IMG/VR virus record: IMGVR_UViG_3300023284_001411
Location: 11,453-75,452 of that record
From: a virus
DNA length: 64,000 nucleotides
Strand: one strand, 5' to 3'
Positions 8,759 to 23,223 of the stretch are shown here, one piece after another. Every line of letters begins with the position of its first letter. Position 1 is the first letter of the stretch. A model generated the notes under the pieces. That model did not search any database and was not told the origin of the DNA. It saw only the letters and a list, made by a program, of their open reading frames with translations. Made by a program: the position numbers and the translations under genes.

Positions 8759-9134
8759 TACAGGTAAGCTTGACGGTGTAGGGGCAAGCTGTGTTTGGGC
8801 AAGCGTAATTGGTCGCCTGGGAAAGGTCGATGCCGCAGACGCGGCAACTGGTGTCGGAGATCTGGGGCCAGGTCGGAAGGGGTATGGCCGGACCCGGCCA
8901 GGGCGGTTGCACGGGCGGGGGCGGGGGCCACCGCTTGAGGACCTCCTCCACGGTGAGCTTTACCACCAGGTCGACCAGCTCCCGGAGGACCATCCGGGAA
9001 GCCTGTTCCCCAAACCCTTCCTTAGCCAGGGCTTGGGTCTTTTCTACCAGATTATGCATGCATTCGGTACAGAGTTCGAGGCGGTCGCTATCCTTTGCCT
9101 CCCACAGACGCCCACACTGGGCACACATCCTCAT
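8739..9134 (-). CDS. Hypothetical Cys/Pro-rich protein
   Basis: CxxC pairs at both ends, Pro-rich linker; coupled overlaps. Confidence 0.55.
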   Translation of the reverse strand: MRMCAQCGRLWEAKDSDRLELCTECMHNLVEKTQALAKEGFGEQASRMVLRELVDLVVKLTVEEVLKRWPPPPPVQPPWPGPAIPLPTWPQISDTSCRVCGIDLSQATNYACPNTACPYTVKLTCIGGDDG

Positions 9135-9409
9135 GGTTTGTCCTTCGTCTCGAGGTGGCCACAGTCACAGCATAAGACGCCGTGGCTGGACCAGTTAAGA
9201 TTCGCGCTGAGACATTTACAGCAAAGCTTTATCTTACAGGCGGAGTCCTTGAAAAGTCCAGTGGGATTTTTTATGAATCCTCCAGTCCGCGGCTTGCGGA
9301 GGGCACAGTCTTCCGTATGGAAGGACAGGGGCAGGGTAGGATCACTGAGGAGACAGCGACAGGAGCACGTTTCATCCGGGTTTGCCATGGCGTAGGAGGA
9401 ACTCCACAA
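9131..9409 (-). CDS. Hypothetical protein with CxCRCLLxDP..HxxxC motif
   Basis: Motif shared with ORFs 16779-17864 and 23448-25301. Confidence 0.6.
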   Translation of the reverse strand: MWSSSYAMANPDETCSCRCLLSDPTLPLSFHTEDCALRKPRTGGFIKNPTGLFKDSACKIKLCCKCLSANLNWSSHGVLCCDCGHLETKDKP

Positions 9410-9519
9410 GCTTGAATTTCCTTTTCTCCTTCGCCGGGGTCCTGGCGTATTCGCTCTTGAGCTTCCGCCAGAGGTTCTTCGACATCTTTAGATTATACCG
9501 CGAAACGAGGTCTTGTAGT

Positions 9520-9840
9520 CTACGAACTGCTGAGCCACTCATCGACATCCTCCCTAAGAGCCATCCTTTCCAGGACTTGTGCCCTTTTGGCCGTTGAATC
9601 TGCCCTTCGTCGATAGTTGAGGGCACACAACAAAAGGTCCTCTCGCTTTGCGGCAAGCCAAAAACCATCCTGGTCAGAAACGACAGGATGCTCTTTAAAA
9701 ACCAGGTCACCCAATACCTTTCGTGTCGGCTGTTCGGTCTTCTCCCTGGGCATGCCTGCTTTCTCGGCTATCACATCAGCTTTTTGCTTCACTTGGTTAA
9801 GGACACAGAGCACTCGTAATTCTCGATGAGTCAGGTTCAT
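9520..9840 (-). CDS. Winged-helix DNA-binding protein
   Basis: ADVIAEKAGM..RKVLGDLVFKEHPVVSDQDGFWLA pattern. Confidence 0.6.
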   Translation of the reverse strand: MNLTHRELRVLCVLNQVKQKADVIAEKAGMPREKTEQPTRKVLGDLVFKEHPVVSDQDGFWLAAKREDLLLCALNYRRRADSTAKRAQVLERMALREDVDEWLSSS

Positions 9841-9907
9841 GCGAACACCACAATATAGGACAGGACGAAGCCGCTCAGGGCAGCCAAAAGGAACAGGGTC
9901 CAGCGGC

Positions 9908-10330
9908 TCATAGCCCCACCTCCTCCAGGTCCCGGACCAGCTCTCGCATGTCCGCTCGGAAGTCGGCGGGGGACACCTTGTAAGGTGTCACCTTACGATC
10001 GAGATCACATTCATCGTTCTCGTTCAAATGGCCTTCTATCTCCAGCTCTTCCAAGGCTTCACCGACCTCGCCCGACCGCAAAGCGTCCAAGGCCCAGAGC
10101 GCGCTTCGAACCTCCCGGTCGAAATCTCCCGGAAGCCATGTCTCATTCTTTGCCAAGCCAAGGCTTTTGGCCATAACGGCACCGGCAAAACAAACCCTAC
10201 AAGTCCGACCCCCGGAGTGAAAACGTTTCATGTCTACTGTGTAGCCCTTGCTCCTCTCGACCCTGTTCAAGTCAGAGAGGGCCAACTTCACCAAGGCCGA
10301 GGGCTTCTTAGGTAACTTCGTCAGTGTCAT
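9908..10330 (-). CDS. Hypothetical protein
   Basis: 140 aa, CRVCFAGAV motif; good SD. Confidence 0.6.
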   Translation of the reverse strand: MTLTKLPKKPSALVKLALSDLNRVERSKGYTVDMKRFHSGGRTCRVCFAGAVMAKSLGLAKNETWLPGDFDREVRSALWALDALRSGEVGEALEELEIEGHLNENDECDLDRKVTPYKVSPADFRADMRELVRDLEEVGL

Positions 10331-10703
10331 CTTCTTCCTCCGTGGGTGTAGGGATGTGTATAATACTATCGAGCTCTTTCAGCATGTCATGCATCAAGCC
10401 CAGGCAAGTGTGATGTCCTCCATGGTTGTAATACTCAACGCTATCGCTCGCCTTGTCGTGCGTCCGCAGGGTAGTCATGATCACAGCGTCGAACCGCTTG
10501 GCAATCACCGCGAACAGGTCGTCATTCGACAGCTCATCGAGGACCACGGTCCCGTCGCCAACGACGCAGGTCGTGAGGAAGGTGGCGATGGCATGTAGTC
10601 TCTGTACTGTCGTATTTGTAAATCTGTCCAGAGTGGCCAAGCCAGCAAGCCATGTGGCCTCCGCCGCTGGGTCAAACTTCTTGGGCATTGGGCCGTTCAC
10701 CAT
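10308..10703 (-). CDS. Hypothetical protein
   Basis: Start MVNGPM after GGAGG SD. Confidence 0.55.
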   Translation of the reverse strand: MVNGPMPKKFDPAAEATWLAGLATLDRFTNTTVQRLHAIATFLTTCVVGDGTVVLDELSNDDLFAVIAKRFDAVIMTTLRTHDKASDSVEYYNHGGHHTCLGLMHDMLKELDSIIHIPTPTEEEDDTDEVT

Positions 10704-11077
10704 GCCTCCAAATTCTCCCACCCTCGCGGGCGCGTGGTGTAGTGAAAGAAGGGCCGGCCGCAGTAGCGGACGGCCAGGTAGTACGCCCGAGCGATCGAGT
10801 AGCCCAGCCAGTGACGACCCCAGAGCATGTGCCGGCGAACGTCTTCCTGCATGGCGATGAGGAACTTCTTGTCGCAACGCTTCCGCTCTGCCTCGTCCCC
10901 GCCCCGCCAGTAGCCGAAGTCGTGGTGATTGCAATCGGCCACGAACATAAAGTTCGGGGGCTTGACCCAACCGCCCTTCCCGCCGCAGCCATTGGCGATG
11001 TGCTTCTGCTGACGCCACGTGAGATTGAGCCAGGTGAACTTCGTCTGCTTCTGTCCGTCTTTTACTTCGATAGGCAT
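10697..11077 (-). CDS. Phospholipase A2-like protein
   Basis: NGCG ... CNHHDFGY ... RKRCDKKF ... AYYLAVR resembles the prokaryotic PLA2 HD motif. Confidence 0.6.
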   Translation of the reverse strand: MPIEVKDGQKQTKFTWLNLTWRQQKHIANGCGGKGGWVKPPNFMFVADCNHHDFGYWRGGDEAERKRCDKKFLIAMQEDVRRHMLWGRHWLGYSIARAYYLAVRYCGRPFFHYTTRPRGWENLEAW

Positions 11078-11421
11078 TAGCGATCGTCTCCTGATCCGTG
11101 AACAGTGCCGCGCTCCTGCCGGCCCTGGATCTTCTCGATGTTCAAAGTGGCCACGGTCGAAAAAGGGTAACCCAACATCGTCGCGATACCCGCTACATAC
11201 CAAAGGACGTCGCCCAGTTCCTTCAGGAGATCCACTCGATCGACAGCGGGAATGTCATCCCAGCGGAAAACGCCCTGGTCCCGCATCAGCTTGCCAATCT
11301 TCTCGGCGACCTCGCCCGCCTCGCCCGCAAGCTTCAGTGGGAGGTAGGCCGTCTCGTCCATCATGGCAGCGCCCTTGGCGTGTTTGAAAGCTTCAGTTTG
11401 GTAGGTGTCGAAGTGTTGCAT
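11077..11421 (-). CDS. MazG-like nucleotide pyrophosphohydrolase
   Basis: LAGEAGEVAEKIGK, KELGDVLWY, NIEKIQGRQERGTVHGSGDDR. Confidence 0.9.
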   Translation of the reverse strand: MQHFDTYQTEAFKHAKGAAMMDETAYLPLKLAGEAGEVAEKIGKLMRDQGVFRWDDIPAVDRVDLLKELGDVLWYVAGIATMLGYPFSTVATLNIEKIQGRQERGTVHGSGDDR

Positions 11422-12083
11422 TTTATTTAATCCCATTCTCCCCGGCAGATGAAGAACACAACGACACCCAGCCATAGCAAGGCGCCCATGAGCAACCACC
11501 ATGACCATTTGTCTTCCTTAGAAACGGTCACTCACGTCCTCCCAGTGTATACACGTGCCCTCATAGTGGTCACAGCCCACCTCGCGACAGATCGCACAGT
11601 CGGCCTCGTTTGTCACTTGGCATTCGCTCAGGACCGGAATGACACTGGCCACGGAGAACATTACCAGACCAGCAAGACATACGCCGCCCAAGAACATCAG
11701 GATCCCGAACATATATCTCATGTTTTTCCTCCTTCGGGAAAACACCTATCGTACCACGTCCTGGCCGAGGGTCAAGGTAGAAAAACCCCCCGGAGGTCTC
11801 GGCGAGAACTTATTCATTTGAGGAATTAGCCTCCCGACTAACCGGATGAGCAAGCCCTTGATCGCTGCTCCGGGGGTTGTCACAAAGTCTCAAGTCTATC
11901 AGCAACTCTCGTACCTGATCCAGACGTGGGGATTATCGTCCCATTTATTCGCCGAACAGGGCTCCCGCTCGGAACAGCAGAGGCATCGGCCGCAGGCCGA
12001 ACAGCAGTCCCATAGGTGCTGGGGCTCCGGGGCGTCCTCAAACCGGAGGAACTGTCCGTCGCTTTTACGATGAACCTGGCGGG

Positions 12084-12311
12084 TCATAGGGTAACGGGAC
12101 CTCGTTCCTTTCGCCAATATTGTTTCTCAAGACTCCGAACCGTCTTTTGGGGTTCGTTAAGGGCCGGGCGCGCCGCGGCGCGCTTGAGATTATCCAGCTC
12201 CTTTCTATGGACACCAAGCACCTTGTTCACTCGGGCAGTGATCTCGGTTAATCGCCAAACAGTGTATGCGGCAAGGACCAGGACCAGAACGAAAGTAAAT
12301 TCAACCATCAA
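12084..12311 (-). CDS. Small membrane protein
   Basis: N-terminal TM helix then basic tail. Confidence 0.5.
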   Translation of the reverse strand: MMVEFTFVLVLVLAAYTVWRLTEITARVNKVLGVHRKELDNLKRAAARPALNEPQKTVRSLEKQYWRKERGPVTL

Positions 12312-12761
12312 CTTCTCTTTATTACATCTTTAGGCACAACCACGGCTCGCTCCTCGAGCGGCGGCGGCAAAAGATCGGGGTCTCGACATTTGGCACAAAG
12401 CCAGCAACTACGGATCCACAACGCCGGGCCGACGGACCGGCACCGTGAACAGGCGACGACGATCGGCGGCTCTTTGGCTTTCTTCTTCATGGTACGTTGA
12501 ACACACCACACATTCTGATGACACGGCCCTGATTGCGAAGGACATTGAGCGCATAGCTCGCAACCATCCGCGAGCGTTCGCACGCGGAGCAGTCCTCGGC
12601 TACTTCCTCCACGTTATAGGCCCACGGAGACCCCTTCTTCAGAAAGGCGAAGACGGCATTCGGCAAGGCATCAGGGTCGCCGGGCACCCGAAGCATCATG
12701 CCCCGGTCCCACTTGACCCGTCGTCGCCCGCCCTTGTCGTGGTTCCGTGTCCGGGAGCCCA

Positions 12762-13085
12762 TTACTTACCCAGGACAGAGTCACGAACCTCGTTGGTCAC
12801 ATCAATTGCCAATTTGGTAGCCCCTGCGTCATCAATGAGTTTGGCCCAGATGTAGTCGACGTCGATGATTGTATAGGTAACGCCGTCGATCGTATGCTCA
12901 ACGCCGTCCCAACCGGTTAGCAGGACCTTAGCCTCAAGTCCAATTTGGATGACGTTCGGCCCGATGGCGACGACCGTTCCGACGGGATCAAACTTCGGCT
13001 TTTCGTCCGCTTCCTTTTCCTCGAGCGTCAGGGGCAGAGCGATTCTCTCAACGACGATGAATTTTCCGAGCGGTTCGAGCTTCAT
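12762..13085 (-). CDS. GroES/Cpn10-like co-chaperonin
   Basis: MKLEPLGKFIVVE, GTVVAIGP, G.EHTIDGVTYTII pattern. Confidence 0.75.
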   Translation of the reverse strand: MKLEPLGKFIVVERIALPLTLEEKEADEKPKFDPVGTVVAIGPNVIQIGLEAKVLLTGWDGVEHTIDGVTYTIIDVDYIWAKLIDDAGATKLAIDVTNEVRDSVLGK

Positions 13086-13120
13086 AAGGGTCTCCTGGGG
13101 GTTAGGAAAAAGTTCAACCT

Positions 13121-13612
13121 CTATCCTACCACATGACCCCAGATTTCTCTTCGAATAATTTTGCTAATAACGGTTTGATCAACATCCCAGATTTCAGCAA
13201 TCTGGGGAGAAGACAATCCACGTTTCATAAGAGGATCTCTTCTTGAATACAACCTCCGAATCACCCTAACATCCATAGGAGACAACTTTGACCTATGATG
13301 ATTTGTCCCATTTACCCTTTTGCCTCTTCCTTTTTGTTCACGATCTCTCGCGTTATCACCATGAGTGCCAATAAAAAGATGATCCGGCCTTACGCATGGA
13401 GGATTGTCACAATGATGACAGACGCACAACTCATCAGGAATAGTCCCGTAATGAAGGATCCAAGAAAGGCGATGTGCATGAATCATTTGTGATCGAAACC
13501 CCCGTATCCTCCCGTACCCATCTCTGCCTCGCCAACCTACGAACTCCCAGCACTCTCCAGCTTTACGGACCTTCTCCCAAAAACGTTTTTCTAACAGAAC
13601 TCTTCTACCCAT
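13121..13612 (-). CDS. HNH homing endonuclease with C-terminal HTH
   Basis: CWEF..GYG..AHRLSW..VCHHCDNPPCVRPDHLFIGTHGDN; AT-richer than flanks. Confidence 0.9.
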   Translation of the reverse strand: MGRRVLLEKRFWEKVRKAGECWEFVGWRGRDGYGRIRGFRSQMIHAHRLSWILHYGTIPDELCVCHHCDNPPCVRPDHLFIGTHGDNARDREQKGRGKRVNGTNHHRSKLSPMDVRVIRRLYSRRDPLMKRGLSSPQIAEIWDVDQTVISKIIRREIWGHVVG

Positions 13613-13986
13613 TTTCTAACCTCCTTATTTGAGCTCTGAAAACGGGACGGATGAGGTATAACCAAGCAATCCACGTTCCCGCACGTGACCCGGTCCAGGG
13701 GCTTGGGGTCAGCGTAGAAGGCCGCGGCCACGAGCCCGCCCATGAGGATCAGGCGGTCGCCGGTCCTTCGGCAGTAGTCCATGAGCTCGTACGCCGTGCC
13801 GGCGGCCCGCGGGGCGTCCCAACCCTCCCCGGGCTCAAGGAGATTGACGAAGGTGTACCGGTCCAGGTCCCCGACCATGGCCGTCAGCTGGTCCCGGGCC
13901 TTGCCCTCGGGAATGGCCGAGTAAAACGGGCTCAGCTTGTGGATGATGCTGGACGACTGGACGCGCTCACCGACGAGGTAGATCAC
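13591..13986 (-). CDS. Uracil-DNA glycosylase-like protein
   Basis: GTG start, MIYLVGE, FVNLL, LILMGG, VIPHPS motifs of the UDG superfamily; coupled to Ro60 stop. Confidence 0.55.
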   Translation of the reverse strand: MIYLVGERVQSSSIIHKLSPFYSAIPEGKARDQLTAMVGDLDRYTFVNLLEPGEGWDAPRAAGTAYELMDYCRRTGDRLILMGGLVAAAFYADPKPLDRVTCGNVDCLVIPHPSRFQSSNKEVRKWVEEFC

Positions 13987-15506
13987 CCCGTCACGAACTC
14001 CCGCAGCACGGACGGCACCGAAGGATCGAAGCCCACGACGTCCAGCATCCCCGGGTCGTTGGGGTCGGCGATGGAGAAGTTGTTCGCCAACATGGACACG
14101 ACGATCAGTTTCGCGTTGGGATTGAGCTTTCGGCGGTACTTGTCGAGCGCGGCCTTCGGGTGAATGCCGCCGGCCCATGTCTGGTTGTCCGTGTAGACCA
14201 CGAAGGCATCGACCTCGATGTTCTTGCGGAGCGCATAGGTCATCGGCTGCGCGCAGTCCGTCCCGCCGAAGGGAAGTTTCGACGTCTTCCGCAGGACCTC
14301 GGTATAGGTCATGTCCCGAGTCACCGAGAGCGGTGAGAATATGTGGGTGAACGCCATGGGCACGCACAGCGGCTCAGTCCTCATAGTCACCAGGAGCATG
14401 GCCGCCGCGGCCTCTCGGCAAGTGACCCCGACGACGCCGGCACAGTCGGCCCAGGTCATGGAGCCCGAGACGTCCAGGCCCAGGAGGAAGCGCTTCCCGG
14501 ACGGCTTTACCTGGTCGAAGGACAGGCTGAAGGCCTCCTCGACCGCGGCCGAGATACCCGCGTCCACTTCCCATTTGAGGCTACCTCGCACGCCCTTTCC
14601 CTGCTTGTAGGTCTTGAGGGCCGAGAGCAGCTGGATCGGGTGAATACGGGACCTCTTGATCAGTACCGTGTCCGTCAGCCGGTTTTCGACGATCTTGTTC
14701 GCGTCCCAGCGTCCAGGACCCAGGACCTCCCGCGCCGAGAGCGCGCCGAGGTGCTTGAGGGTCGCCTGGTAGGGCATGAAAGGCAAGAGGGCCTGCCAAA
14801 CGTCCGTCCGCTTCTTGAGCTCAGGGGTCAGCATCTCATGGGAGATGCGGCCCGACTCCTTGATCAGCTGGATACACTCGTCGAGGCCCAGCCCTTCGAA
14901 GGGGTCGTTCCGTCCCTGGACAATGGCCCGAAAGAGGTGGTTGAGGCGCCCATTCTTCGGGTGCGTTAGCCGCAGGAGGTCGCGATGTGACCAGCCCTCG
15001 CGCTGGATGTATTTCAAGCGCTGATAGTCGACATTCTCCGTGGTTTTCGACAGATACCAGCCCCGGATCATGCGCCGCGGCCGGCGTCCCCAGCCGCGGA
15101 GCTCATTGACGTAGTGGGCGAAGCGGAAGAGGTGAAAGCCCGTGCGGACGGTGTTGTTGAAACGGTTTTCAACTATTCGCGCCGCCCGAGGGCTCAACGT
15201 ACAGAGGGCCAGGGACAGCATGACCGGGTCCGGGCGCGCTGCACGGCCCTGGTTCCAGATGTCGCAGATCTCCTCCGCTGTTCGCTCAGGATCCTCGGCG
15301 AGGCACTCGTGGATCGCCTTCAGGTTCTCGCGAACGAGCGGCCCTTCCTTGGTGTAGTACGTCCCTCCCTCAGCGCCCAGGATCAAGAACCGGCGGAGCC
15401 GTTCGAACGGGTCGACGGTAAAAGAGAACCCTCCCGCGCTGTTTTCAACTTGACCCGGGAGGGCCTCACTCTGGGGCGTGTCGAGGTGAGTGGCGTAATC
15501 CATCAT
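13983..15506 (-). CDS. rsr: Ro60/Rsr TROVE-domain RNA-binding protein
   Basis: QVENSAGGFSF, RLRRFLILGAEGGTYY, KYIQREGWSHRDLLRLTHP, vWA MIDAS LDVSGSM, GGTDCAQPM, VVYTDNQTW. Confidence 0.95.
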   Translation of the reverse strand: MMDYATHLDTPQSEALPGQVENSAGGFSFTVDPFERLRRFLILGAEGGTYYTKEGPLVRENLKAIHECLAEDPERTAEEICDIWNQGRAARPDPVMLSLALCTLSPRAARIVENRFNNTVRTGFHLFRFAHYVNELRGWGRRPRRMIRGWYLSKTTENVDYQRLKYIQREGWSHRDLLRLTHPKNGRLNHLFRAIVQGRNDPFEGLGLDECIQLIKESGRISHEMLTPELKKRTDVWQALLPFMPYQATLKHLGALSAREVLGPGRWDANKIVENRLTDTVLIKRSRIHPIQLLSALKTYKQGKGVRGSLKWEVDAGISAAVEEAFSLSFDQVKPSGKRFLLGLDVSGSMTWADCAGVVGVTCREAAAAMLLVTMRTEPLCVPMAFTHIFSPLSVTRDMTYTEVLRKTSKLPFGGTDCAQPMTYALRKNIEVDAFVVYTDNQTWAGGIHPKAALDKYRRKLNPNAKLIVVSMLANNFSIADPNDPGMLDVVGFDPSVPSVLREFVTG

Positions 15507-15524
15507 CCGTCCTTTCGAGAAAAA

Positions 15525-15659
15525 TGCCGAGCAAGTTTGTGAACGCAGTTTAATAACTGGCGCTCTCGGCTGTCTGAGCTACCCCGACTCAATTGCCGGG
15601 GGCAGGTTTCGCACCTGCGACCTCCAGTTCCATGATAATCTACATTCGTCGGCTCAGCA
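15525..15659 (-). ncRNA. Y RNA, YrlA-type (tRNA mimic)
   Basis: UGCUGAGCCGA...ACUUGCUCGGCA bulged-C stem enclosing T arm GCAGG-UGCGAAA-CCUGC, loop-closed acceptor CCCCGGC/GUCGGGG, D arm UA-GCUC..GAGC. Confidence 0.85.
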
Positions 15660-15676
15660 AAACCTATCCAAAAAGA

Positions 15677-15794
15677 ACCGAGCAAGGTGTGACCGTAGGA
15701 TGTGCCTATGCCATTTGGCGACATCGCGCAAGGCAATGACGGGATTCGAACCCGCATTCTTCGTGAAAAGATAACCTACAATCGTCGGCTCGGT
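15677..15794 (-). ncRNA. Y RNA, YrlA-type (tRNA mimic)
   Basis: ACCGAGCCGA...CCUUGCUCGGU stem enclosing T arm GCGGG-UUCGAAU-CCCGU, acceptor CAUUGC/GCGAUG, D arm GCC-AAAUGGCAUA-GGC. Confidence 0.85.
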
Positions 15795-15814
15795 GACAGT
15801 ACTGCAAAACAAAA

Positions 15815-15879
15815 AGCCGAACAAGTTTGTAGCCGAGGGGGATACTTTATGATGGTAACCCTCAGCCATCGGCTCGGCT
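15815..15879 (-). ncRNA. Minimal Y RNA
   Basis: AGCCGAGCCGAU-GGCUGAGGG...CCCUCGGCU-ACAAACUUGUUCGGCU then U-run. Confidence 0.75.
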
Positions 15880-15902
15880 AAACAGATTGGGCTCTAAATC
15901 AA

Positions 15903-15975
15903 AAACCGAACAAGGTAACGGTCGAAGGGAAAAACTTTCCATATAAAGGTAACCTTCAACCAATCGGCTCGGTTT
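15903..15975 (-). ncRNA. Minimal Y RNA
   Basis: AAACCGAGCCGAUU-GGUUGAAGG...CCUUCGACC-GUUACCUUGUUCGGUUU. Confidence 0.75.
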
Positions 15976-15993
15976 ATCTGAATGTCAAAGAAG

Positions 15994-16056
15994 GTCGAGC
16001 AAGTTTGTGACCAAAGGGTAAATGGTATGCTGATAACCTCCAGCCTTCGGCTCGAC
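15994..16056 (-). ncRNA. Minimal Y RNA
   Basis: GUCGAGCCGAA-GGCUGGAGG...CCUUUGGUC-ACAAACUUGCUCGAC. Confidence 0.75.
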
Positions 16057-16063
16057 TGATCCC

Positions 16064-16093
16064 AGTGTACCATCATCAGGGGTCCGAGGTCAA
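16064..16093 (-). promoter_or_regulatory. Sigma70-like promoter of Y RNA array / Ro60 operon
   Basis: TTGACC-N18-TACACT with extended -10 TG; predicted +1 falls at the 5' end of the first Y RNA. Confidence 0.6.
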
Positions 16094-16782
16094 CCCTTTT
16101 TCTCGAGCAATTCCTTCTCGCGCTCCAAGGTGAGCTCGCCGGTCATGACCCGGGTTCGCAGGAACACGGCGTAGGTGTCCTCCACGTCCCGCGCACAGTA
16201 GTCGTAGATCGTCTCGAGTTGGCCCTTGAGCCAGAGGCCGTAGACATCCTTCCCGACCGTGGCGCCCTTCCCAGGCCTTCCCACGACCCGCGCCAGTAGG
16301 TCCAGGCCGCCCGTGCAGCGGAAAGCGCCGAACTCCGTCATCCACTCCATCAGATCGATCCGGTCAGAGGTGAACCGGTAGCGGTAACCGAACTTCGGGC
16401 CGGCGTAGTAGGCCGGGCACGATACACCGTACCGGAAGGCTGTCATGGACAGGAGGGGGAGGTCGAAGCCCCGCCCGTTGAAGTCCACGAGGATCGGGCG
16501 ATGCTTCTGGACACCTTCCCAGAAGCGCTGGGCAATCTCCTGAGCGGAACCCTTAATGACGCCCGTCTTCTCGATCTTGAACCCCGCATCCAGGGCCAGG
16601 AAGGCCACGCAGATCGGTACCTGGTAAGTGACCGGGATGAAGTCAGAGCCCTTGTCCGCGAGGAGGTCCGCCTGGTATTGGCCGACGGTCTCGGAGCCAC
16701 TCCAATCCTCGGGGTAGCCCCGGGAGTCCCGGATCAGTGTCCCGTCGGGCCGCGACTCGCAGTCGTAGACAAGGTACCTCAT
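16090..16782 (-). CDS. PolB-like 3'-5' exonuclease (DEDDy)
   Basis: VYDCES, FNGRGFDLP, YCARDV exonuclease motifs I-III. Confidence 0.85.
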   Translation of the reverse strand: MRYLVYDCESRPDGTLIRDSRGYPEDWSGSETVGQYQADLLADKGSDFIPVTYQVPICVAFLALDAGFKIEKTGVIKGSAQEIAQRFWEGVQKHRPILVDFNGRGFDLPLLSMTAFRYGVSCPAYYAGPKFGYRYRFTSDRIDLMEWMTEFGAFRCTGGLDLLARVVGRPGKGATVGKDVYGLWLKGQLETIYDYCARDVEDTYAVFLRTRVMTGELTLEREKELLEKKG

Positions 16783-17864
16783 TCCGGAAACCTTCCAAAC
16801 TTGACACCATCGAGCCTGAACCAAGGAGACTTCACATCCAAGGGATTACCGATCACGATCATCTCGAGAAAGTCACGAAACAACGGCTCATAATCTGCCT
16901 TGGGAAGAAAAACCTCATTCGGTTTTGGGTCACAGGCCAGGGCCTTCGCCACTGTTCTCCAACCGTTCTTGGTATCCCCGCTCGAGCGCTCCATCCACTC
17001 ATCAAGATCTCCAGCCTTAGCGTGCTCCACGAGCTCGTCGAGCATCGTCATAGTCATGGGCTGATGGAGTTCAAATTCTCCGCCGCATTTGAACAACACC
17101 GCCTGAGCGCAGTCGCCATCGTGCAGCGGCTTCGACTCGGGGTTCTCCGGGTTACCGGTCCACCACACATAGCCACTGGTCACAGCCATCCCGCAGTGGC
17201 CGCACGGGCCATGCCCCATGTGTGGGGGAGGGCCGAGCTGGCCGACCTGGCCGACCTGGTCAGCTGTAAAGAAAAACTTATCCGGCTCAAACGGAGCGTC
17301 CTTGGGGAAGTCGAGAGATAAAGTACCATCACCCTCATTCGACCGAAACTCAACGCCACTGATTTTGACTTTCGCGGAAGTGGACGCCACATCAGGATCA
17401 TCCATCCGTATAGCATGCTCCACCAACTGGTCGAATGCCTTGGGTTCCATGTAAACGACCGAGGGCTTCGGATAGGCCTGGGTATGGGAGAGGATGAAGT
17501 GCCCCATGCTATATATCTCAATCGCGGGGGTGGTGTCCACAGTATGAACGGAGTTCCCATCTGTGGCTTCCGGCGCCAGGGTTTTCCCTTTCCCCACCAC
17601 TCCTTCACGGATACAGGAATTACACACTTGCCCATGGAGCCGAGGAGCGTTGCCACCGCAAAACGGGCAACAGCCCTTGGCCATGACCGGATTCGACCGA
17701 AAAGCCTCCTTACCATAGTCCAGGACCTGGCCCCAGGAGTCCTTTGACGCCTCCGCGGGCGCCCCGGCAATGTCGATCAGGGTCCGCTTCGCGCAGTCCT
17801 CGGCGTGTTGCTCGAGGGGGAGGTCCGGGTCAGAGAGTAGGCATCGACAGCTGCAGTGTATCAT
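16779..17864 (-). CDS. Hypothetical multi-domain Cys-rich protein
   Basis: N-terminal CSCRCLLSDP..HAEDC motif; several CxxC pairs. Confidence 0.6.
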   Translation of the reverse strand: MIHCSCRCLLSDPDLPLEQHAEDCAKRTLIDIAGAPAEASKDSWGQVLDYGKEAFRSNPVMAKGCCPFCGGNAPRLHGQVCNSCIREGVVGKGKTLAPEATDGNSVHTVDTTPAIEIYSMGHFILSHTQAYPKPSVVYMEPKAFDQLVEHAIRMDDPDVASTSAKVKISGVEFRSNEGDGTLSLDFPKDAPFEPDKFFFTADQVGQVGQLGPPPHMGHGPCGHCGMAVTSGYVWWTGNPENPESKPLHDGDCAQAVLFKCGGEFELHQPMTMTMLDELVEHAKAGDLDEWMERSSGDTKNGWRTVAKALACDPKPNEVFLPKADYEPLFRDFLEMIVIGNPLDVKSPWFRLDGVKFGRFPE

Positions 17865-18124
17865 GCTTTCGTCTTCCCTACTACTGATGAGAGGTAAGTC
17901 TGGGCCAGGGCCATCGACTGTTCCGCAGTGAAGCCCTTGGCAAGGGCCGCATCGTAAACGTTCTTGATAACTTCCATCAAGATGGGCGCGGTGTCTTTCG
18001 TGTTCTCGGCCGCCGCTTCAATCTCGGCGAGCTTCGCCGCGTCATCTTCGGGGAGATGGGGTGTGGTCATCCTACTTGACATCCTTTCATGAGTATTCCT
18101 ACGAGGTAAACGACCCCGAGCCAA
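17861..18124 (-). CDS. Hypothetical protein
   Basis: YDAALAKGFTAEQSMAL small-phage-protein motif; likely start MTTPH. Confidence 0.55.
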   Translation of the reverse strand: MARGRLPRRNTHERMSSRMTTPHLPEDDAAKLAEIEAAAENTKDTAPILMEVIKNVYDAALAKGFTAEQSMALAQTYLSSVVGKTKA

Positions 18125-18164
18125 AAGGTCGAGGCGAACACAGATTCAGGCCAGGTAAATTGCA

Positions 18165-18512
18165 TCAGACTCCTCCCATCATCGCGTTGAACCACTGCCG
18201 CCGGGCCTCGCCCTCGGGCGTGGGTTCAGGGGTCACAGGAAAGAACTCTGACAAAGCTGTCGCGTACCTTCCGAAATCACCAAAGAACTTCTGAGCGATA
18301 ACAGCCAGGGAGTGTTCCCCTTCGTGGAAGGCCATTGCCGAGTTGTGTACGGGTGCATAGACCCTGTCCCTGGCAACATCGTACAGATCTACATGGCAAA
18401 TATTACAGGCATAAAGCTCTCGGCCTTCCTTCCAGTCCTTATAGAAAGACTTATTCTGTGCGTCTACTGAAATAATCTCATGGGAGCCGCACAATGGGCA
18501 GTAGGCGATCAT
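18165..18512 (-). CDS. Zn-ribbon hypothetical protein
   Basis: CPLCGS...CNIC. Confidence 0.55.
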   Translation of the reverse strand: MIAYCPLCGSHEIISVDAQNKSFYKDWKEGRELYACNICHVDLYDVARDRVYAPVHNSAMAFHEGEHSLAVIAQKFFGDFGRYATALSEFFPVTPEPTPEGEARRQWFNAMMGGV

Positions 18513-18778
18513 ACCTCGCGCCCCTTCCAGTCATCCCACACCTTGGGCGGGTGGATCTTGTCCCGGCCGTGGCATGAGTAACACTCCTTCAGGATCCGGT
18601 TGCCCTCACCGTGGACGCGATAGGCCCGCTGGGCCGGCGTCTCGAGGAGCTCAGCCTGGGCCGCGGGCGGGAGCTGAGCGGGCTTGTCGGCAAAACCAGT
18701 AGCCCAACCCATACTAATCGCAAACAGCAACATCAGGCCAAGGAAGCTATACCACGTTTCTACTGGATACAGCCTCAT
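18509..18778 (-). CDS. Secreted/membrane protein with single CxxCH motif
   Basis: Hydrophobic N-terminus; ILKECYSCHG. Confidence 0.5.
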   Translation of the reverse strand: MRLYPVETWYSFLGLMLLFAISMGWATGFADKPAQLPPAAQAELLETPAQRAYRVHGEGNRILKECYSCHGRDKIHPPKVWDDWKGREV

Positions 18779-19194
18779 TCCTCCTCCTCACTGTCAATAG
18801 ACTTGACCAGGGCAGCGAAGCTCGAGGCCAGGCGGGCCAGGTCGTCCCGCGTCTGACCGGAGAGCTGCATCCCGTTGATCTCGATGGTGAAGGAAGGCCC
18901 ATCCAGGAGCTTCCCCTCCCGGAGCTGTACCCACGTGGCAAAGGTCAGGCCCGACTCCACGAAGGCCTCGAACGTGCCGAGCATGGTCGGCTGGCGAGAG
19001 GCCCACGGCGTACCGGTGAAGAGGTTGGCGCCGACGTAAACGTCCTCTTCGCCGAGCTTCTGCTTCGTGTCCTTAAGGATGATGGCGAAGTCACCTCCCT
19101 CCTCGGGCAGGGACTTTGCGATCATGCCCGTGGTGCTGAGTTGGTTGATGACCTTGAAGATATCGCCTTGGTGATTGGTCATTGACAATCCCAT
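18775..19194 (-). CDS. Hypothetical protein
   Basis: Coupled ORF with typical codon usage. Confidence 0.55.
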   Translation of the reverse strand: MGLSMTNHQGDIFKVINQLSTTGMIAKSLPEEGGDFAIILKDTKQKLGEEDVYVGANLFTGTPWASRQPTMLGTFEAFVESGLTFATWVQLREGKLLDGPSFTIEINGMQLSGQTRDDLARLASSFAALVKSIDSEEEE

Positions 19195-19472
19195 CTATCA
19201 AGAGCTTTCTGCATAGTCACACTCACAGCGTCCGTCTTTCCCCATTTTCCTGTAGTGGCGTTAGCCCATACGCGGATAACACAAAAATAGACAACCTTCC
19301 TTGGTAAATGGTCAGCTATCCAACGACTTATCTTGTTTTTTCTTTCATGCCAGTCAGTCATTGGGCACCACGCAGTGAATGGTTGTGTCGAGGCTCTCGA
19401 TCCTATTGGCCAGGAGCGCGAAGCCCTTCTCGGTGACGTCAGCCAAGCGCTCAAGGGCGTCGGCTATCCGCT

Positions 19473-19730
19473 TCACGTCTGCGAGGTAGGTTTCTGTTTC
19501 CTTACAGTCCATCGTTCTTCGAGTCTCCTCATAGCCTTCGGTCCGGGTAAAGCGCCTATACGACGTCTTCGAGTCTCCGTCCAGTATACCACGGCATCTT
19601 TCGGTGTATACCCCGATTCCACGAGATTTCGAATCTTCTTCCGCGCCAGAGAGTCGGTGCTCCAGTAGCGCTTCCGCGCCGGGCGCAGATCGGGGCGCTT
19701 GCACTTCTTACCCGCTTGTTTTACCGCCAT
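19473..19730 (-). CDS. Small basic hypothetical protein
   Basis: Lys/Arg-rich; GAAGG SD. Confidence 0.45.
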   Translation of the reverse strand: MAVKQAGKKCKRPDLRPARKRYWSTDSLARKKIRNLVESGYTPKDAVVYWTETRRRRIGALPGPKAMRRLEERWTVRKQKPTSQT

Positions 19731-19995
19731 CGTCCTTCTTCCTTTCTACTTGGCCCTTTGTCGTCACTGTAATATAGCGTTGCCGCTCCTTGAGGAACTC
19801 CTTCACATCCACCTTCTGCGTTAGCAGGCCGTCCCGGTAGACAGGGTACTCGCCCTCGGCCAGGACGTGGACCTTCCCGTCGATGTCCGTGAACGTCCGG
19901 AGCTCGCAGTCCTTACAGGCCCAGGTCCCGGGTCGGGGGCCGAAGGCCACGGCCTCCATCGAGCTGCAGTTCCAGCAGACCAGCTCACAACTCAT
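19708..19995 (-). CDS. Zn-ribbon hypothetical protein
   Basis: CWNC...CKDC. Confidence 0.5.
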   Translation of the reverse strand: MSCELVCWNCSSMEAVAFGPRPGTWACKDCELRTFTDIDGKVHVLAEGEYPVYRDGLLTQKVDVKEFLKERQRYITVTTKGQVERKKDDGGKTSG

Positions 19996-20318
19996 CCTTT
20001 ACCTCCTCCGCGGTCAAGTCTTCATTCTCAAGTTCGGCGTCGTCGGCAGCGTCCAAGGCTTCGTCCTCGTTCTCCGCTTCGACGAAAGCGATTCGAGTCA
20101 GGGTGAGCTTCCACGTCTTCATTTGCGCCGCCTCGCCCCGCAGCCGTCGCAGCGGCGAAGGCCCGGGGTTAGTTTGGTGGCGCAGTGTCGGCAATGGGAT
20201 TTAATCACCACCAAGGGAAAGGGGCCGACTGATTTGGGCAAGCCCAGCAGCCACTCGGCCACGAACGCCAGGATAATGAAATAGATCAGACCAAAAACAA
20301 CAATCCATCCAGGACCAA

Positions 20319-20612
20319 TCATGCGCCCGCCTCCTCGGCCTTGCGGTAGAGGAGCTCGGCCAGGGCCTTCGCGGTCTCGGGGAGGAACCAAACCCTCGTG
20401 CCGTCGGCCAAACAGAGCACGACGCGCCCGGTCGACCCATCAAGGGCCACTGACGCAGCCGCGCAGGAAGGAATCCCCTCCAGCGCGGCGTCAATAGCTT
20501 GTTTCGCGTTTATGGCGTCCGCCTCGGCCCGGTAACGATCAAGAACGGCCTTCTGCTTCTTGAGGATCTCAGCCTCGGCCTCGGCCCTGAAGTCTCGAAA
20601 GAAATCACCCAT
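20319..20612 (-). CDS. Hypothetical protein
   Basis: GGAGG SD; coupled overlaps. Confidence 0.55.
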   Translation of the reverse strand: MGDFFRDFRAEAEAEILKKQKAVLDRYRAEADAINAKQAIDAALEGIPSCAAASVALDGSTGRVVLCLADGTRVWFLPETAKALAELLYRKAEEAGA

Positions 20613-20785
20613 TGTCGTCCTCCTCCATCAGGTCAAAGCCGTCAGCCAGTTGGTCGTCGTAGCACGCTGGCTCATACCGAGCGTCCTCGGGCTCGAGGGT
20701 CGCGACGGCATGCGCCTCGTCGAGGCACCGCATCGCAGCCTCGGAAAACTCGCTTCTGTGAACGCCGCCACAGTAAGGGCAGAGG

Positions 20786-21232
20786 CTACTCTCCCTCGTC
20801 TGCGTCGTCATTTGTGAACTCCTCTCTCCACTCTTTCTCAGTGTCGCACGGCTTCTCGACGATCAGCACGCCGCCGTTGAAGGTCGCGTCGATCGGGGAC
20901 TTGTCCTTGTACGCGGGGTTGTGGCGCTTGACATGCATTGCAAGTAGCGATCCATCGAACCTTCGGATATGGCCACAGACCTTGCCGTTGTGAAACTTGG
21001 GCTCGTCCCAGCCGTCGACGCCACGCTTGTGGAGCGCAGCCTCCAGGACGTTCTCGCAGTAGAAGTTCATTGCGTCGCGCTCGTCATCCTCGAAGTGGGA
21101 ATCACGCGCTCGCATTCGGCGCAAGGTCCCGTAGCTCATGCCCGCGGCGCGGGCCGACGGGCCATAGCGGCCGGTTCGCTCGAGCTCGACCAAGTAGGCC
21201 TGAATGGTTTTTTCGTCAATCGCTGGATTCAA
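20786..21232 (-). CDS. Terminase small subunit (putative)
   Basis: N-terminal HTH (TGRYGPSARAAGMSY), LEAALHKRGVDGWDEP..FDGSLL motif typical of YuA-like TerS. Confidence 0.7.
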   Translation of the reverse strand: MNPAIDEKTIQAYLVELERTGRYGPSARAAGMSYGTLRRMRARDSHFEDDERDAMNFYCENVLEAALHKRGVDGWDEPKFHNGKVCGHIRRFDGSLLAMHVKRHNPAYKDKSPIDATFNGGVLIVEKPCDTEKEWREEFTNDDADEGE

Positions 21233-21269
21233 TTGTCTCTCCCAAAAAAAATTATAACTTAACCCAGCA

Positions 21270-21770
21270 CTATGTTACCACACTTTTAGCCAAAAGGTCG
21301 GCATAAACGTACTCCTCGCGCCCATGCTCGGGAGGAGGCCTGATCCGCTGAATGCCCAAGGGGATCTCTTTAAGCGTCGAGAGGACCACCAGTTTGTCGC
21401 GGTCGCGCCGGAAAATACGGGCGCTAACCTTCTTCTCGTTCAGAAGCTTCTTGATCCGGTCGCGAATGTACCTGGACGTCACAGCCTCATCGAGCATCCG
21501 GGCCTGCTGCCGAAAGCGTATGCGGCTCTTCGTCCGTGGGTTGCCGGTGTCGTCTGACTTGACCCGTAGGGCGGCGGCCACGTCGGCGAACCTGTAAAAC
21601 TTCAGGGAGCCCATGGTGAAATAAGGAACGGTGTCAAGGAGTATATAAGGGTTCCCGTAACGGTTCAGGCCCAACGCTCCAAGCACGTCGGGCCGAGTAC
21701 CCACAGGGAATGCGATCGTTAAAGCCTGAAACTGTCGTAAGTTCTTGCCTGTTATCTTTATAATTCTCAT
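21270..21770 (-). CDS. Hypothetical basic protein, possibly DNA-binding
   Basis: Highly basic; FYRFADVAAAL wing-like segment. Confidence 0.45.
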   Translation of the reverse strand: MRIIKITGKNLRQFQALTIAFPVGTRPDVLGALGLNRYGNPYILLDTVPYFTMGSLKFYRFADVAAALRVKSDDTGNPRTKSRIRFRQQARMLDEAVTSRYIRDRIKKLLNEKKVSARIFRRDRDKLVVLSTLKEIPLGIQRIRPPPEHGREEYVYADLLAKSVVT

Positions 21771-21993
21771 AATTATCTTTGCTGGTCTTTGCTGGAAAAC
21801 AGGATTCTCAAAGTCGTAAGCCCAAGTGGCGTCACGCCCCCCGGGGAAAAAACTTTACTTACTTTAAACTTATATAGATGTTGTGGGGTAAAATATAATA
21901 AACATTTATACACCCCCTGTAAACCCTGTGTCTATAAACTTAGGGGGTAAAGTTATGAAGTGAATAAAGATCTGAGCCGTAACTCCAACAAAA

Positions 21994-22545
21994 CTACCGA
22001 TTCGTCTTTTGGTCACACTTCACTACCTTCCAGGCGTCGATCGGCCCCGAGTATAGATCCACGAACACCGCCCGCACGCGCCGCTCGAATTCGTCCGGCG
22101 ACACTACATCCGTGAGTGTGAATTCTTCGGGCACTTCCCCACCCTCATAGAGCGCCTCGTCTGCGAGCTCGAGCATGCCCACGGGGTCCAGGAAGGCCGC
22201 CAGCGTCCCCGCTGTATGCCGCTCGACCTCGTAGAGGCAGTAGTCATGCGGGTGTCCTGGCGCCCCTTCTCCGGCCAGTAGGGCCTCTAACCAGGCATTG
22301 TGGACCTCCCAAGCCTCCTCCGGCGTCGCGAATGTCACCTCACATGACATGAATCCAGCGTATTTCTCGTCGACCACGTACCGAGGCCCCTTGGCCGGTG
22401 CCGCTGGCAGTTGGCCAAGGACCCACTGCAACGATCCTTGGCGCGCCGTCAGCCGATGCCATTCGGGCGATCCGGCGACGGCCCTATCAGCCATATCCCC
22501 TATTCGGTCCCATTCCTTCTCAATCGTCCTTCGTAAGTCGTCCAT
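21994..22545 (-). CDS. Hypothetical protein
   Basis: Start MDDLRR after GGAGG SD. Confidence 0.6.
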   Translation of the reverse strand: MDDLRRTIEKEWDRIGDMADRAVAGSPEWHRLTARQGSLQWVLGQLPAAPAKGPRYVVDEKYAGFMSCEVTFATPEEAWEVHNAWLEALLAGEGAPGHPHDYCLYEVERHTAGTLAAFLDPVGMLELADEALYEGGEVPEEFTLTDVVSPDEFERRVRAVFVDLYSGPIDAWKVVKCDQKTNR

Positions 22546-23093: not shown

Positions 23094-23223
23094 TTCCTTT
23101 TCTCCAAATCTAATAGTCGGCCGTGGGCCGTGTCCAGTCGCTCGTGAATCATCTTGATGCGACCGTTTGTCAAACGGTCATTGAGGAGGATGTAGACGAC
23201 AAGGAGCGCCAGCCCCAGAAATG

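What the first reader, a model, noticed from the sequence alone, without database searches (positions are those of the whole stretch)
15525..16093. Tandem array of five Y RNAs upstream of a phage Ro60
Seen in sequence: five 63-135 nt units, 17-23 nt apart, each with 5' (C/U)GAGCCGA and 3' CUUG(C/U)UCG. Together these form a bulged-C helix closely matching the Ro60-binding stem of metazoan Y RNAs (GGUCCGA/UUGACU). Each also has a covarying upper stem, a shared GRUUAYC motif and a trailing U-rich run. A TTGACC-18-TACACT promoter points at the first unit, and the array ends 18 nt before the Ro60 start. Established: bacterial Rsr genes are flanked by Y RNAs, typically one or two. Inference: five different Y RNAs form a modular adaptor set loading one Ro60 ring with different effector domains.
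Basis: partly seen in the sequence, partly recalled or inferred. Interest (0 to 1): 0.85.

Follow-up and report, generated by a model that had tools for sequence, protein, structure and literature searches.

The report
Five Y RNA genes before phage Ro60
An uncultured 75-kb phage carries five small Y RNA genes in a row in front of its Ro60 gene; the array is real, but such arrays of three to six turn out to be common next to Ro60 in phages and bacteria, so it is a good specimen, not an oddity.

Summary
On the minus strand, 16056-15526, five hairpin RNAs lie between a sigma-70-like promoter and a bona fide Ro60 gene. Each has a 7-bp lower helix, a bulged C, G·U and A-U pairs, a covarying 9-bp upper stem, GRUUAYC and a U-rich tail. 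A covariance model built from units 1-3 finds units 4 and 5 (E 4e-9, 2e-7) and nothing else in 64 kb. Units 4 and 5 carry YrlA-like tRNA-mimic inserts; units 1-3 are short hairpins. They are Y RNAs by every test available here; expression and Ro60 binding remain untested.

The novelty claim does not hold. The same model finds 183 units at 80 other viral Ro60 loci, all on the Ro60 strand. 26 of these loci have three or more units, 17 four or more, 7 five or six. Bacterial loci look similar (up to six), and cultured actinophages have two or three. This scan has also noted Ro60-like genes with RNA arrays on other DNA.

Worth noting: the UUAYC loop motif of nematode and vertebrate Y RNAs is nearly universal in these prokaryotic and viral Y RNAs.

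The parts
16064..16093 (-). Sigma-70-like promoter: TTGACC (16093-16088), 18-nt spacer with TG, TACACT (16069-16064). The -35 hexamer overlaps the stop codon of the upstream exonuclease gene.
   Evidence: It is the only promoter-like site in 15300-16400 (0.6 expected in shuffles, so position rather than statistics supports it). It ends about 7 nt before U1.
15994..16056 (-). Y RNA unit 1, short hairpin type, 63 nt. Loop starts with GGUUAUC; tail is CCUUCUUU.
   Evidence: R2 66.1 bits. Rfam sbRNA RF01656 22.7 bits. Fold z -2.1.
15905..15973 (-). Y RNA unit 2, short hairpin type, 69 nt. Carries GGUUACC; tail is UUUUUGAUUU.
   Evidence: R2 64.2 bits. RF01656 20.9 bits. Fold z -3.3.
15816..15878 (-). 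Y RNA unit 3, short hairpin type, 63 nt. Carries GGUUACC; tail is UUUUUGUUUU.
   Evidence: R2 75.2 bits. Fold z -4.0.
15677..15794 (-). Y RNA unit 4, 118 nt, with a tRNA-mimic insert: T-arm GCGGGUUCGAAUCCCGU at 15755-15739, then a 6-bp stem, then a small D-like arm.
   Evidence: R1 41.6 bits, E 3.7e-9, although it was not in the model's training set. RF01656 26.3 bits; partial YrlA match 18.1 bits over 15756-15710.
15526..15658 (-). Y RNA unit 5, 133 nt, YrlA-like. T-arm at 15618-15602, middle stem at 15601-15582, D-arm at 15581-15562. Carries GAUUAUC; tail is AUUUUU.
   Evidence: Rfam YrlA RF02553 29 bits, E 5.6e-4, full-length alignment. R1 35.5 bits, E 1.8e-7, not in the training set. Fold z -3.5.
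13983..15506 (-). Ro60 (Rsr) gene, 507 aa.
   Evidence: Pfam TROVE 95.6 bits and vWA_Ro60 215.7 bits. PDB matches: human RO60 9nen 1.7e-102, Rsr 2nvo 1.3e-100, Xenopus 1yvp 5.1e-97. MIDAS D344-x-S346-x-S348 is invariant in alignment A3.
16090..16824 (-). Upstream neighbour, given as context only: a PolB-type 3'-5' exonuclease.
   Evidence: Pfam DNA_pol_B_exo2 151.5 bits. PHROG 403, 'DNA polymerase exonuclease subunit'. It is found at none of 167 other Ro60 loci, so there is no sign of a functional link.

Best explanation
The locus is a phage Ro60-Y RNA module. Five Y RNA genes lie in tandem directly upstream of the phage's Ro60 gene and on the same strand: three short hairpin Y RNAs, and two longer YrlA-like Y RNAs with tRNA-mimic inserts.

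Shown here: the shared two-helix core with a bulged C, its covariation, the tRNA-like inserts, the bona fide Ro60, and that the same arrangement recurs widely.

Inferred:
- One promoter at 16093-16064 starts transcription at about the first base of U1.
- The transcript runs through the array into Ro60. Each lower stem plus U-run may act as a leaky terminator or a processing boundary.
- The precursor is cut into five RNAs, as published for M. smegmatis YrlA and YrlB.
- Each RNA binds the outer face of the Ro60 ring through the 7-bp helix, the bulged C and the G·U/A-U element.
- The variable loop or tRNA-like module of each RNA gates the ring or tethers it to a host enzyme. The phage has no PNPase or RtcB of its own, so host PNPase is the leading candidate, as in Deinococcus RYPER and Thermus phage phiLo. 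The likely effect is to redirect or damp host RNA decay during infection.
For: - Anatomy.
- Family status: R1, built from U1-U3, recovers U4 and U5 and nothing else in the window. R2 finds no further copy in the whole 75-kb genome.
- Covariation within the array: 98.9% paired, six pairs with compensatory changes, slid controls 31-44%.
- Covariation across 61 distinct homologues: 97% paired, 342 double-change cells against 92 in shuffles, slid controls 35-50%.
- Rfam: YrlA alignment of U5; sbRNA alignments of U1, U2 and U4.
- Ro60 identity.
- Recurrence: 183 of 183 hits at 80 viral Ro60 loci are on the Ro60 strand, nearly all within about 1 kb of the gene. 142 hits at 80 cellular loci and 13 at 7 cultured phages.
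- A scanner blind to the loop motif finds 72 candidates on the Ro60 strand against 3 on the other.
- No PNPase or RtcB in the phage.
- Literature: Y RNAs are encoded within 2-4 kb of Ro60 on the same strand, M. smegmatis YrlA and YrlB are processed from one precursor upstream of rsr, and short hairpin Y RNAs coexist with tRNA-like ones (PMC4201824). Phage phiLo Ro60 binds two upstream Yrl RNAs and host PNPase and attenuates PNPase (PMC12135203).
Against: - No expression data: no sequencing run could be listed.
- No binding data.
- No unit reaches an Rfam gathering score (YrlA 29 against 69; sbRNA 26 against 38).
- Only U1 matches the published GNCGAAN0-1G motif exactly; the others read GCCGAU or GCCGAC.
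- The promoter match is a single site that is no more frequent than in shuffles.
- The simple terminator scan finds none, so how the individual 3' ends arise is unknown.
- The host and the effector are unknown.
Confidence: 0.85

Rival explanations
1. The five hairpins are not free RNAs. They are cis-acting Ro60-binding sites in the leader of the Ro60 mRNA. Ro60 would autoregulate its own translation or stability through them, the last site ending 18 nt from the start codon.
For: - The array abuts the ribosome-binding site.
- Only one promoter-like site and no simple terminator lie between the array and Ro60.
Against: - In other loci the same units lie downstream of Ro60 (L055, L058, L066, L036) or are interleaved with tRNA genes (L027, L165, L168). 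That fits stand-alone stable RNAs.
- U-rich tails follow each unit.
- Characterised homologues are free RNAs bound by Ro60 (PMC4201824, PMC12135203).
- The two roles are not mutually exclusive.
Confidence: 0.08
2. Only one or two units function. The others are decaying products of recent local duplication, or serve merely as transcription terminators or insulators between the replication module and Ro60.
For: - U1-U3 are 78% identical in aligned columns.
- U4 and U5 share a nearly identical 5' strand, which suggests local duplication.
- U-runs follow the stems.
Against: - All five keep 18 of 18 or 17 of 18 pairs. Compensatory changes are present and loops and inserts differ, which indicates selection on each copy.
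- The bulged C, the G·U pair and UUAYC are intact in every unit.
- Arrays of 3-6 recur in unrelated loci.
Confidence: 0.05
3. The units act apart from Ro60. They could be tRNA-like decoys or substrates for host tRNA enzymes or for anticodon nucleases, and sit next to Ro60 by chance or for co-expression only.
For: - U4 and U5 carry T-arm and D-arm mimics.
- In some phages the units sit inside tRNA gene arrays.
Against: - U1-U3 have no tRNA-like part, yet share the same Ro60-type helix.
- The helix, not the insert, is the conserved element across more than 300 units that were all found at Ro60 loci.
Confidence: 0.02

Closest known systems
Bacterial and phage Y RNAs with Rsr/Ro60: YrlA and YrlB of Salmonella Typhimurium and Mycobacterium smegmatis, Yrn1 and Yrn2 of Deinococcus radiodurans (Chen et al. 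2014, PMC4201824; Rfam RF02553)
   Same: - Encoded just upstream of Ro60 on the same strand.
- 5' and 3' ends pair into a Ro60-type helix.
- tRNA-mimic Y RNAs coexist with short hairpin Y RNAs that have small pyrimidine-rich loops.
- In M. smegmatis both are cut from one precursor.
   Different: - Five genes here, against the 'at least two' documented per species.
- Two different tRNA-mimic units in one array.
- Scores far below the YrlA gathering threshold (29 against 69 bits).
- The helix and the UUAYC motif are closer to metazoan Y and sbRNA consensus than to the proteobacterial YrlA consensus.
Thermus phage phiLo Ro60 with Yrl1 and Yrl2 (PMC12135203; PDB 9KOP, 9L5Y)
   Same: - A phage-encoded Ro60 with Y-like RNAs directly upstream.
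- The phage has no PNPase of its own. In phiLo the RNP recruits host PNPase and attenuates it.
   Different: - phiLo has two RNAs, against five here.
- Binding, structure and the PNPase effect were shown experimentally for phiLo. None of that was tested here.
Nematode stem-bulge RNAs (Rfam RF01656) and vertebrate Y RNAs (PMC4450293, PMC4726728)
   Same: - Lower stem with a single bulged C.
- An upper stem, then UUAUC at the 5' end of the loop.
- A CA..ACUUG 3' strand and a U-rich tail.
- Several paralogues per genome.
- U1, U2 and U4 align end to end with RF01656, and two units in viral locus L061 pass its gathering score.
   Different: - A prokaryotic virus, with no RNA polymerase III or La.
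- The window's own units are below the RF01656 threshold.
[quoted passage not shown]
Listeria phage CKA15 (P100-like): three highly transcribed non-coding regions within 2 kb upstream of an Rsr-like gene (PMC12282133)
   Same: Several abundant small transcripts on the same strand upstream of a phage Ro60-like gene, proposed by the authors to be Y RNAs.
   Different: There the evidence is expression without structure analysis. Here it is structure and homology without expression.

Membership tests
Y RNA (Ro60-associated ncRNA, general definition) | The 5' and 3' ends pair into a conserved helix with a single bulged C and a GGUCCGA-like 5' strand, which is the Ro60-binding site. | tested here: met
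   - All five units have a 7-bp helix, a bulged C, then G·U and A-U pairs.
- Across 61 homologues the bulged C is present in 60 of 61 and the following G in 59 of 61.
Y RNA (Ro60-associated ncRNA, general definition) | Encoded close to a Ro60 orthologue (within 2-4 kb) and on the same strand. | tested here: met
   The array ends 18 nt upstream of the Ro60 start codon, on the same strand.
Y RNA (Ro60-associated ncRNA, general definition) | Accumulates as a discrete small RNA that is bound and stabilised by Ro60. | not testable with these tools
   No sequencing run could be listed. Binding needs EMSA or RIP.
YrlA (Rfam RF02553) | Score at or above the Rfam gathering threshold of 69 bits. | tested here: not met
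   U5 scores 29 bits (E 5.6e-4) and U4 has a partial match of 18.1 bits. There are no gathering-level hits in the window.
YrlA (Rfam RF02553) | A tRNA-like module inside the Y RNA stem, in the order T-arm, stem, D-arm. | tested here: met
   - U5 aligns over all three arms of the model.
- U4 aligns over model positions 30-81, with a canonical GGGUUCGAAUCCC T-arm.
- U1-U3 lack the module and are of the short-hairpin type, like YrlB and Yrn2.
YrlA (Rfam RF02553) | The GNCGAAN0-1G motif near the 5' end (PMC4201824). | tested here: inconclusive
   - U1 reads GCCGAAGG and fits the motif.
- U2 and U3 read GCCGAU, and U4 and U5 read GCCGAC, so they share only GNCGA.
- Among homologues, A at that position is found in 41 of 61.
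Nematode sbRNA (Rfam RF01656) | Score at or above the gathering threshold of 38 bits. | tested here: not met
   The window's units score 26.3, 22.7 and 20.9 bits. Two related viral units in L061 do pass, at 43 and 41.1 bits. This is a resemblance, not membership.
Nematode sbRNA (Rfam RF01656) | A UUAUC motif at the 5' end of the loop (PMC4450293). | tested here: met
   - UUAUC in U1, U4 and U5; UUACC in U2 and U3.
- Across homologues, UUA is found in 61 of 61, Y in 57 of 61 and C in 58 of 61.
- A motif-blind scan still finds TTAYC in 57 of 72 viral and 28 of 38 cellular candidates.
Ro60 / Rsr protein | A TROVE domain plus a Ro60-type vWA domain with a MIDAS motif, and similarity to solved Ro60 rings. 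| tested here: met
   - Pfam TROVE 95.6 bits and vWA_Ro60 215.7 bits.
- The D-x-S-x-S motif is invariant in alignment A3.
- PDB matches 9nen, 2nvo and 1yvp at E 1e-97 to 1e-102.

The most novel reading that the evidence does not exclude
Prokaryotic and phage Y RNAs, with this array as a clean example, keep the whole metazoan Y/sbRNA core:
- a 7-bp helix,
- a bulged C,
- G·U and A-U pairs,
- a 9-bp upper stem,
- UUAYC at the loop start,
- a CA..ACUUG 3' strand,
- a U-rich tail.

On this reading Y RNAs from phage to human are true homologues. That runs against the published view that bacterial Y RNAs are not homologous to vertebrate ones (PMC4726728). UUAYC, known only as a DNA-replication determinant of sbRNAs, would then be an ancient element of the Ro60 RNP. 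Arrays of 3-6 such RNAs would be multiplexed adaptor sets that let one Ro60 ring address several host enzymes.
Probability: 0.4. Interest if true: 0.65.

Novelty: new member of a known kind. Interest (0 to 1): 0.35.

Why it matters
For this window alone the result is modest. It is a well-formed Ro60-Y RNA module of known type, in an uncultured phage with no close relative (nearest Ro60 52% identical). It has more Y RNA genes than any experimentally studied system.

The survey it prompted has wider use:
- **Arrays are common.** Tandem arrays of Y RNAs are common next to Ro60 in viruses and bacteria.
- **They are missed.** Rfam gave no Y-RNA-type gathering match in this window and only two, to the nematode sbRNA family, in 20 related viral loci. 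In six of the seven cultured-phage GenBank records examined, the units lie in unannotated intergenic gaps or between tRNA genes (the seventh had none).
- **They share a eukaryote-type motif.** They carry the UUAYC motif so far described for nematode and vertebrate Y RNAs.

A covariance model like R2 could annotate these genes. The arrays offer natural sets of one Ro60 handle with different modules, which could be used to ask what the Y RNA modules recruit.

Tried and rejected
- **blastn of the array** against GenBank phages: no match.
- **The search for related loci with the single Ro60 protein**: no locus. The alignment-based scan worked.
- **The look-up of sequencing runs**: none was listed, so no expression evidence either way.
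- **MAFFT of all five units** misaligned the 3' end of U4. I used a model-based alignment instead (A5).
- **Rfam at gathering level**: no match in the window. No Y_RNA RF00019 match was reported at E<=10.
- **Functional link to neighbours**, tested by tblastn of the PolB-type exonuclease, the 361-aa ORF, the downstream ORF and the HNH endonuclease against 167 Ro60 loci: no hit. I rejected the idea that the phage supplies its own nuclease partner through the adjacent exonuclease. PHROGs files that gene as a DNA polymerase exonuclease subunit.
- **RtcB and PNPase (RNase PH) domains** in the phage genome: none.
- **Terminator scan**: none by the simple rule.
- **Literature not held**: the review PMC10870794 and the supplement of PMC4201824 were not available. 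I could not check the largest Y RNA number reported per genome in those tables.
- **Protein-coding reading** of the small ORFs overlapping the array (15503-15757, 15654-15869, 15894-16076, all minus strand): rejected in favour of RNA, given the helix covariation and the recurrence at Ro60 loci.

Full report
**Where and what.** The window is 64 kb of a 75,452-nt IMG/VR virus record that CheckV rates complete. Genes around the finding lie on the minus strand:
- a PolB-type 3'-5' exonuclease at 16824-16090;
- a 569-nt non-coding stretch;
- a 507-aa protein at 15506-13983.

The 507-aa protein has Pfam TROVE (95.6 bits) and vWA_Ro60 (215.7 bits) domains. It matches human RO60 (9nen, 1.7e-102), Deinococcus Rsr (2nvo, 1.3e-100) and Xenopus Ro60 (1yvp, 5.1e-97). 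The MIDAS D-x-S-x-S motif is invariant in an alignment with its nearest relatives. It is a bona fide Ro60. Its nearest relative in 5.8 billion proteins is 52% identical, and the best cultured-phage match is 42% (Gordonia phage Cashline).

**Checking the observation.** Read on the minus strand, the stretch holds five units. Stem-defined coordinates:

| Unit | Coordinates | Length |
|---|---|---|
| U1 | 16056-15994 | 63 nt |
| U2 | 15973-15905 | 69 nt |
| U3 | 15878-15816 | 63 nt |
| U4 | 15794-15677 | 118 nt |
| U5 | 15658-15526 | 133 nt |

Every unit has the following, in order:
- (C/U)GAGC-C-GA at the 5' end, paired with UU-G(C/U)UCG at the 3' end. This gives a 7-bp helix, a bulged C, then a G·U and an A-U pair.
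- A 9-bp upper stem.
- GGUUAUC, GGUUACC or GAUUAUC at the start of the loop.
- (C)A..A/CCUUG on the returning strand.
- A U-rich tail.

TTGACC-18-TACACT, with TG before the -10 hexamer, lies at 16093-16064. It is the only promoter-like site in 15300-16400. It ends about 7 nt before U1 and overlaps the exonuclease stop codon. U5 ends 18 nt before the Ro60 ATG.

**More than chance.**
- Each unit folds with the ends paired; z-scores are -1.9 to -4.0.
- Model R1, built from U1-U3 only, recovers U4 at 41.6 bits (E 3.7e-9) and U5 at 35.5 bits (E 1.8e-7). It finds nothing else in the window at E<=10.
- The broader model R2 finds no other copy in the window or in the whole phage genome.
- Across the five units 98.9% of stem cells pair, and six pairs carry compensatory changes. 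With partners slid by 1-3 columns only 31-44% pair.

**What the units are.**
- A permissive Rfam scan of the kilobase gives two relevant families. U5 aligns over the full YrlA model RF02553 (29 bits, E 5.6e-4), and the insert of U4 aligns partially (18 bits).
- U4, U1 and U2 align with RF01656, the nematode stem-bulge RNAs that are the nematode Y RNA homologues (26.3, 22.7 and 20.9 bits).
- None reaches a gathering score.
- U5 has a T-arm (15618-15602), a middle stem (15601-15582) and a D-arm (15581-15562), in the YrlA order.
- U4 has a canonical T-arm GCGGGUUCGAAUCCCGU (15755-15739), a 6-bp stem and a small D-like arm.
- U1-U3 are plain hairpins with A/U-rich loops. They resemble the short Y RNAs YrlB and Yrn2, which accompany the tRNA-like ones in all three bacteria studied (PMC4201824).

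**Related loci.** A scan of IMG/VR with an alignment of Ro60 homologues gave 80 viral loci with Ro60 at 40-49% identity.
- R1 found 102 matches there, all on the Ro60 strand.
- Seventy-two confident matches, 61 of them distinct, gave alignment A4 and model R2.
- On A4, 97% of cells pair, and 17 of 18 pairs show changes on both sides. Double-change cells number 342, against 92 in shuffles. Slid controls pair at 35-50%. The alignment was fitted to the model, which favours pairing; the slid controls and the double changes still argue strongly for the structure.

**Copy number.** R2 at E<=0.01 finds 183 units in the 80 viral loci. All are on the Ro60 strand, mostly within 1 kb upstream and sometimes directly downstream. 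At 80 cellular Ro60 loci, mostly metagenome-assembled genomes of Chloroflexota, Armatimonadota, Gemmatimonadota and others, R2 finds 142 units.

| Units per locus | 0 | 1 | 2 | 3 | 4 | 5 | 6 |
|---|---|---|---|---|---|---|---|
| Viral loci (80) | 6 | 17 | 31 | 9 | 10 | 5 | 2 |
| Cellular loci (80) | 16 | 24 | 20 | 8 | 7 | 4 | 1 |

- Viral loci with five units: L016, L017 (identical to L018), L036 and L079. With six: L058 (identical to L059), where the hits lie head to tail at 4316-5042.
- The cellular locus with six is L103 (1563-2306).
- These are my tallies from the hit tables. They are not dereplicated, and several loci have truncated flanks, so they are minimum numbers.
- Cultured phages: Cashline 2, Sixama 1, Blueeyedbeauty 2, HyRo 3, Cece 3, BoomerJR 2, Phosso 0. 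All hits lie in unannotated gaps or between tRNA genes.

So five copies is the upper tenth of a common pattern, not a singular case. Earlier work in this scan also reports arrays of 6-11 RNAs beside more divergent Ro60-like genes on other DNA. Published numbers are lower: at least two per bacterium (PMC4201824), two in phage phiLo (PMC12135203), and three candidate regions in Listeria phage CKA15 (PMC12282133).

**A shared motif with eukaryotic Y RNAs.**
- In the 61 distinct units, UUA after the upper stem is invariant. The next two positions are Y in 57 of 61 and C in 58 of 61. The bulged C is present in 60 of 61.
- The models contain the motif, so I wrote a scanner that uses only the two helices and the bulged C. 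It finds 72 candidates on the Ro60 strand of the viral loci against 3 on the other strand. TTAYC follows the stem exactly in 57 of the 72. For the cellular loci the figures are 38 against 1, and 28 of 38.
- Units of cultured actinophages read CGGUUAYC as well.
- Two units in L061 pass Rfam's own threshold for nematode sbRNAs (43 and 41.1 bits against 38).
- The literature describes UUAUC at the 5' end of the loop as conserved in sbRNAs and vertebrate Y RNAs and needed for their DNA-replication activity (PMC4450293, PMC4726728). It also calls bacterial Y RNAs non-homologous to vertebrate ones (PMC4726728).
- In the held library I found no paper noting the motif in prokaryotic Y RNAs. That library is incomplete.

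**Mechanism.**
- *Shown here:* the conserved handle, the variable modules, the position next to Ro60, and the lack of a phage PNPase or RtcB.
- *From the literature:* Ro60 binds the bulged helix. Y RNA modules gate the ring or tether it to PNPase. phiLo Ro60 with its Yrl RNAs binds host PNPase and slows it (PMC4201824, PMC12135203).
- *Inferred:* there is one transcript from the promoter at 16093-16064, reading through leaky stem-plus-U boundaries into Ro60. It is processed into five RNAs. U4 and U5 use tRNA-like modules, and U1-U3 use short loops, to engage different host factors.
- The adjacent exonuclease is probably part of the replication module (PHROG 403). It is absent from all 167 other Ro60 loci, so I do not link it to the RNP.

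**Rivals.**
- A purely cis-acting leader is unlikely, because the same units occur downstream of Ro60 or among tRNA genes elsewhere.
- Decaying duplicates are unlikely, because every copy keeps its pairing through compensatory changes.
- A Ro60-independent tRNA-decoy role does not explain U1-U3.

**Verdict.** The identification as Y RNAs is well supported at the level of sequence and structure. The novelty of five copies is not supported. This is a new member of a known kind. The general points, that such arrays are common, missed by annotation and carry the UUAYC motif, deserve a systematic study.

Noticed in passing
L027:1450-2455 and 4155-5479: In this viral contig, Y RNA units (1876-1949, 2026-2206, 2214-2355, 2359-2455) are interleaved with tRNA genes; for example a tRNA lies at 1950-2024, directly between two units. 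A long tRNA array flanks Ro60 on both sides. This suggests co-transcription and shared processing with tRNAs.
   Followed up: partly
L058:4475-4622: One Y RNA unit of a six-unit array downstream of Ro60 contains a module (4523-4589) that scores above the Rfam tRNA gathering threshold (46.9 bits). It is a much closer tRNA mimic than U4 or U5 of the window.
   Followed up: no
L061:1886-1959 and 2231-2354: Two viral Y RNA units pass the Rfam gathering score of the nematode sbRNA family RF01656 (43 and 41.1 bits against 38). Automatic annotation would therefore label phage RNAs as nematode sRNAs.
   Followed up: partly
L147:4125-6349: In this Chloroflexia genome, five R2 hits lie downstream of Ro60 on the opposite strand. 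These are the only opposite-strand hits among 338 hits at 168 sources (167 loci plus the window).
   Followed up: no
window:15984-15989 (minus strand): A perfect TTGACA hexamer sits in the U1-U2 spacer. No acceptable -10 hexamer follows at 16-18 nt, so I did not count it as a promoter.
   Followed up: partly
window:13121-13612 (minus strand): An HNH homing-type endonuclease gene (Pfam HNH_3, several PHROG HNH families) lies two genes downstream of Ro60. Between them is a roughly 130-aa ORF (13591-13980) with no Pfam or PHROG match.
   Followed up: partly
L163-L169 (GenBank phages Cashline, Sixama, Blueeyedbeauty, HyRo, Cece, BoomerJR): In six of the seven cultured actinophages examined (Phosso had none), 1-3 Y RNA units with CGGUUAYC lie in intergenic gaps or between tRNA genes. 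They are not annotated in the records.
   Followed up: partly
window:31375-32897 and 9131-25298: Earlier first-reader notes on this genome mention a pentamer-periodic array next to a RAMP-like gene, and an N-terminal Cys/His motif shared by three proteins. I did not examine either.
   Followed up: no
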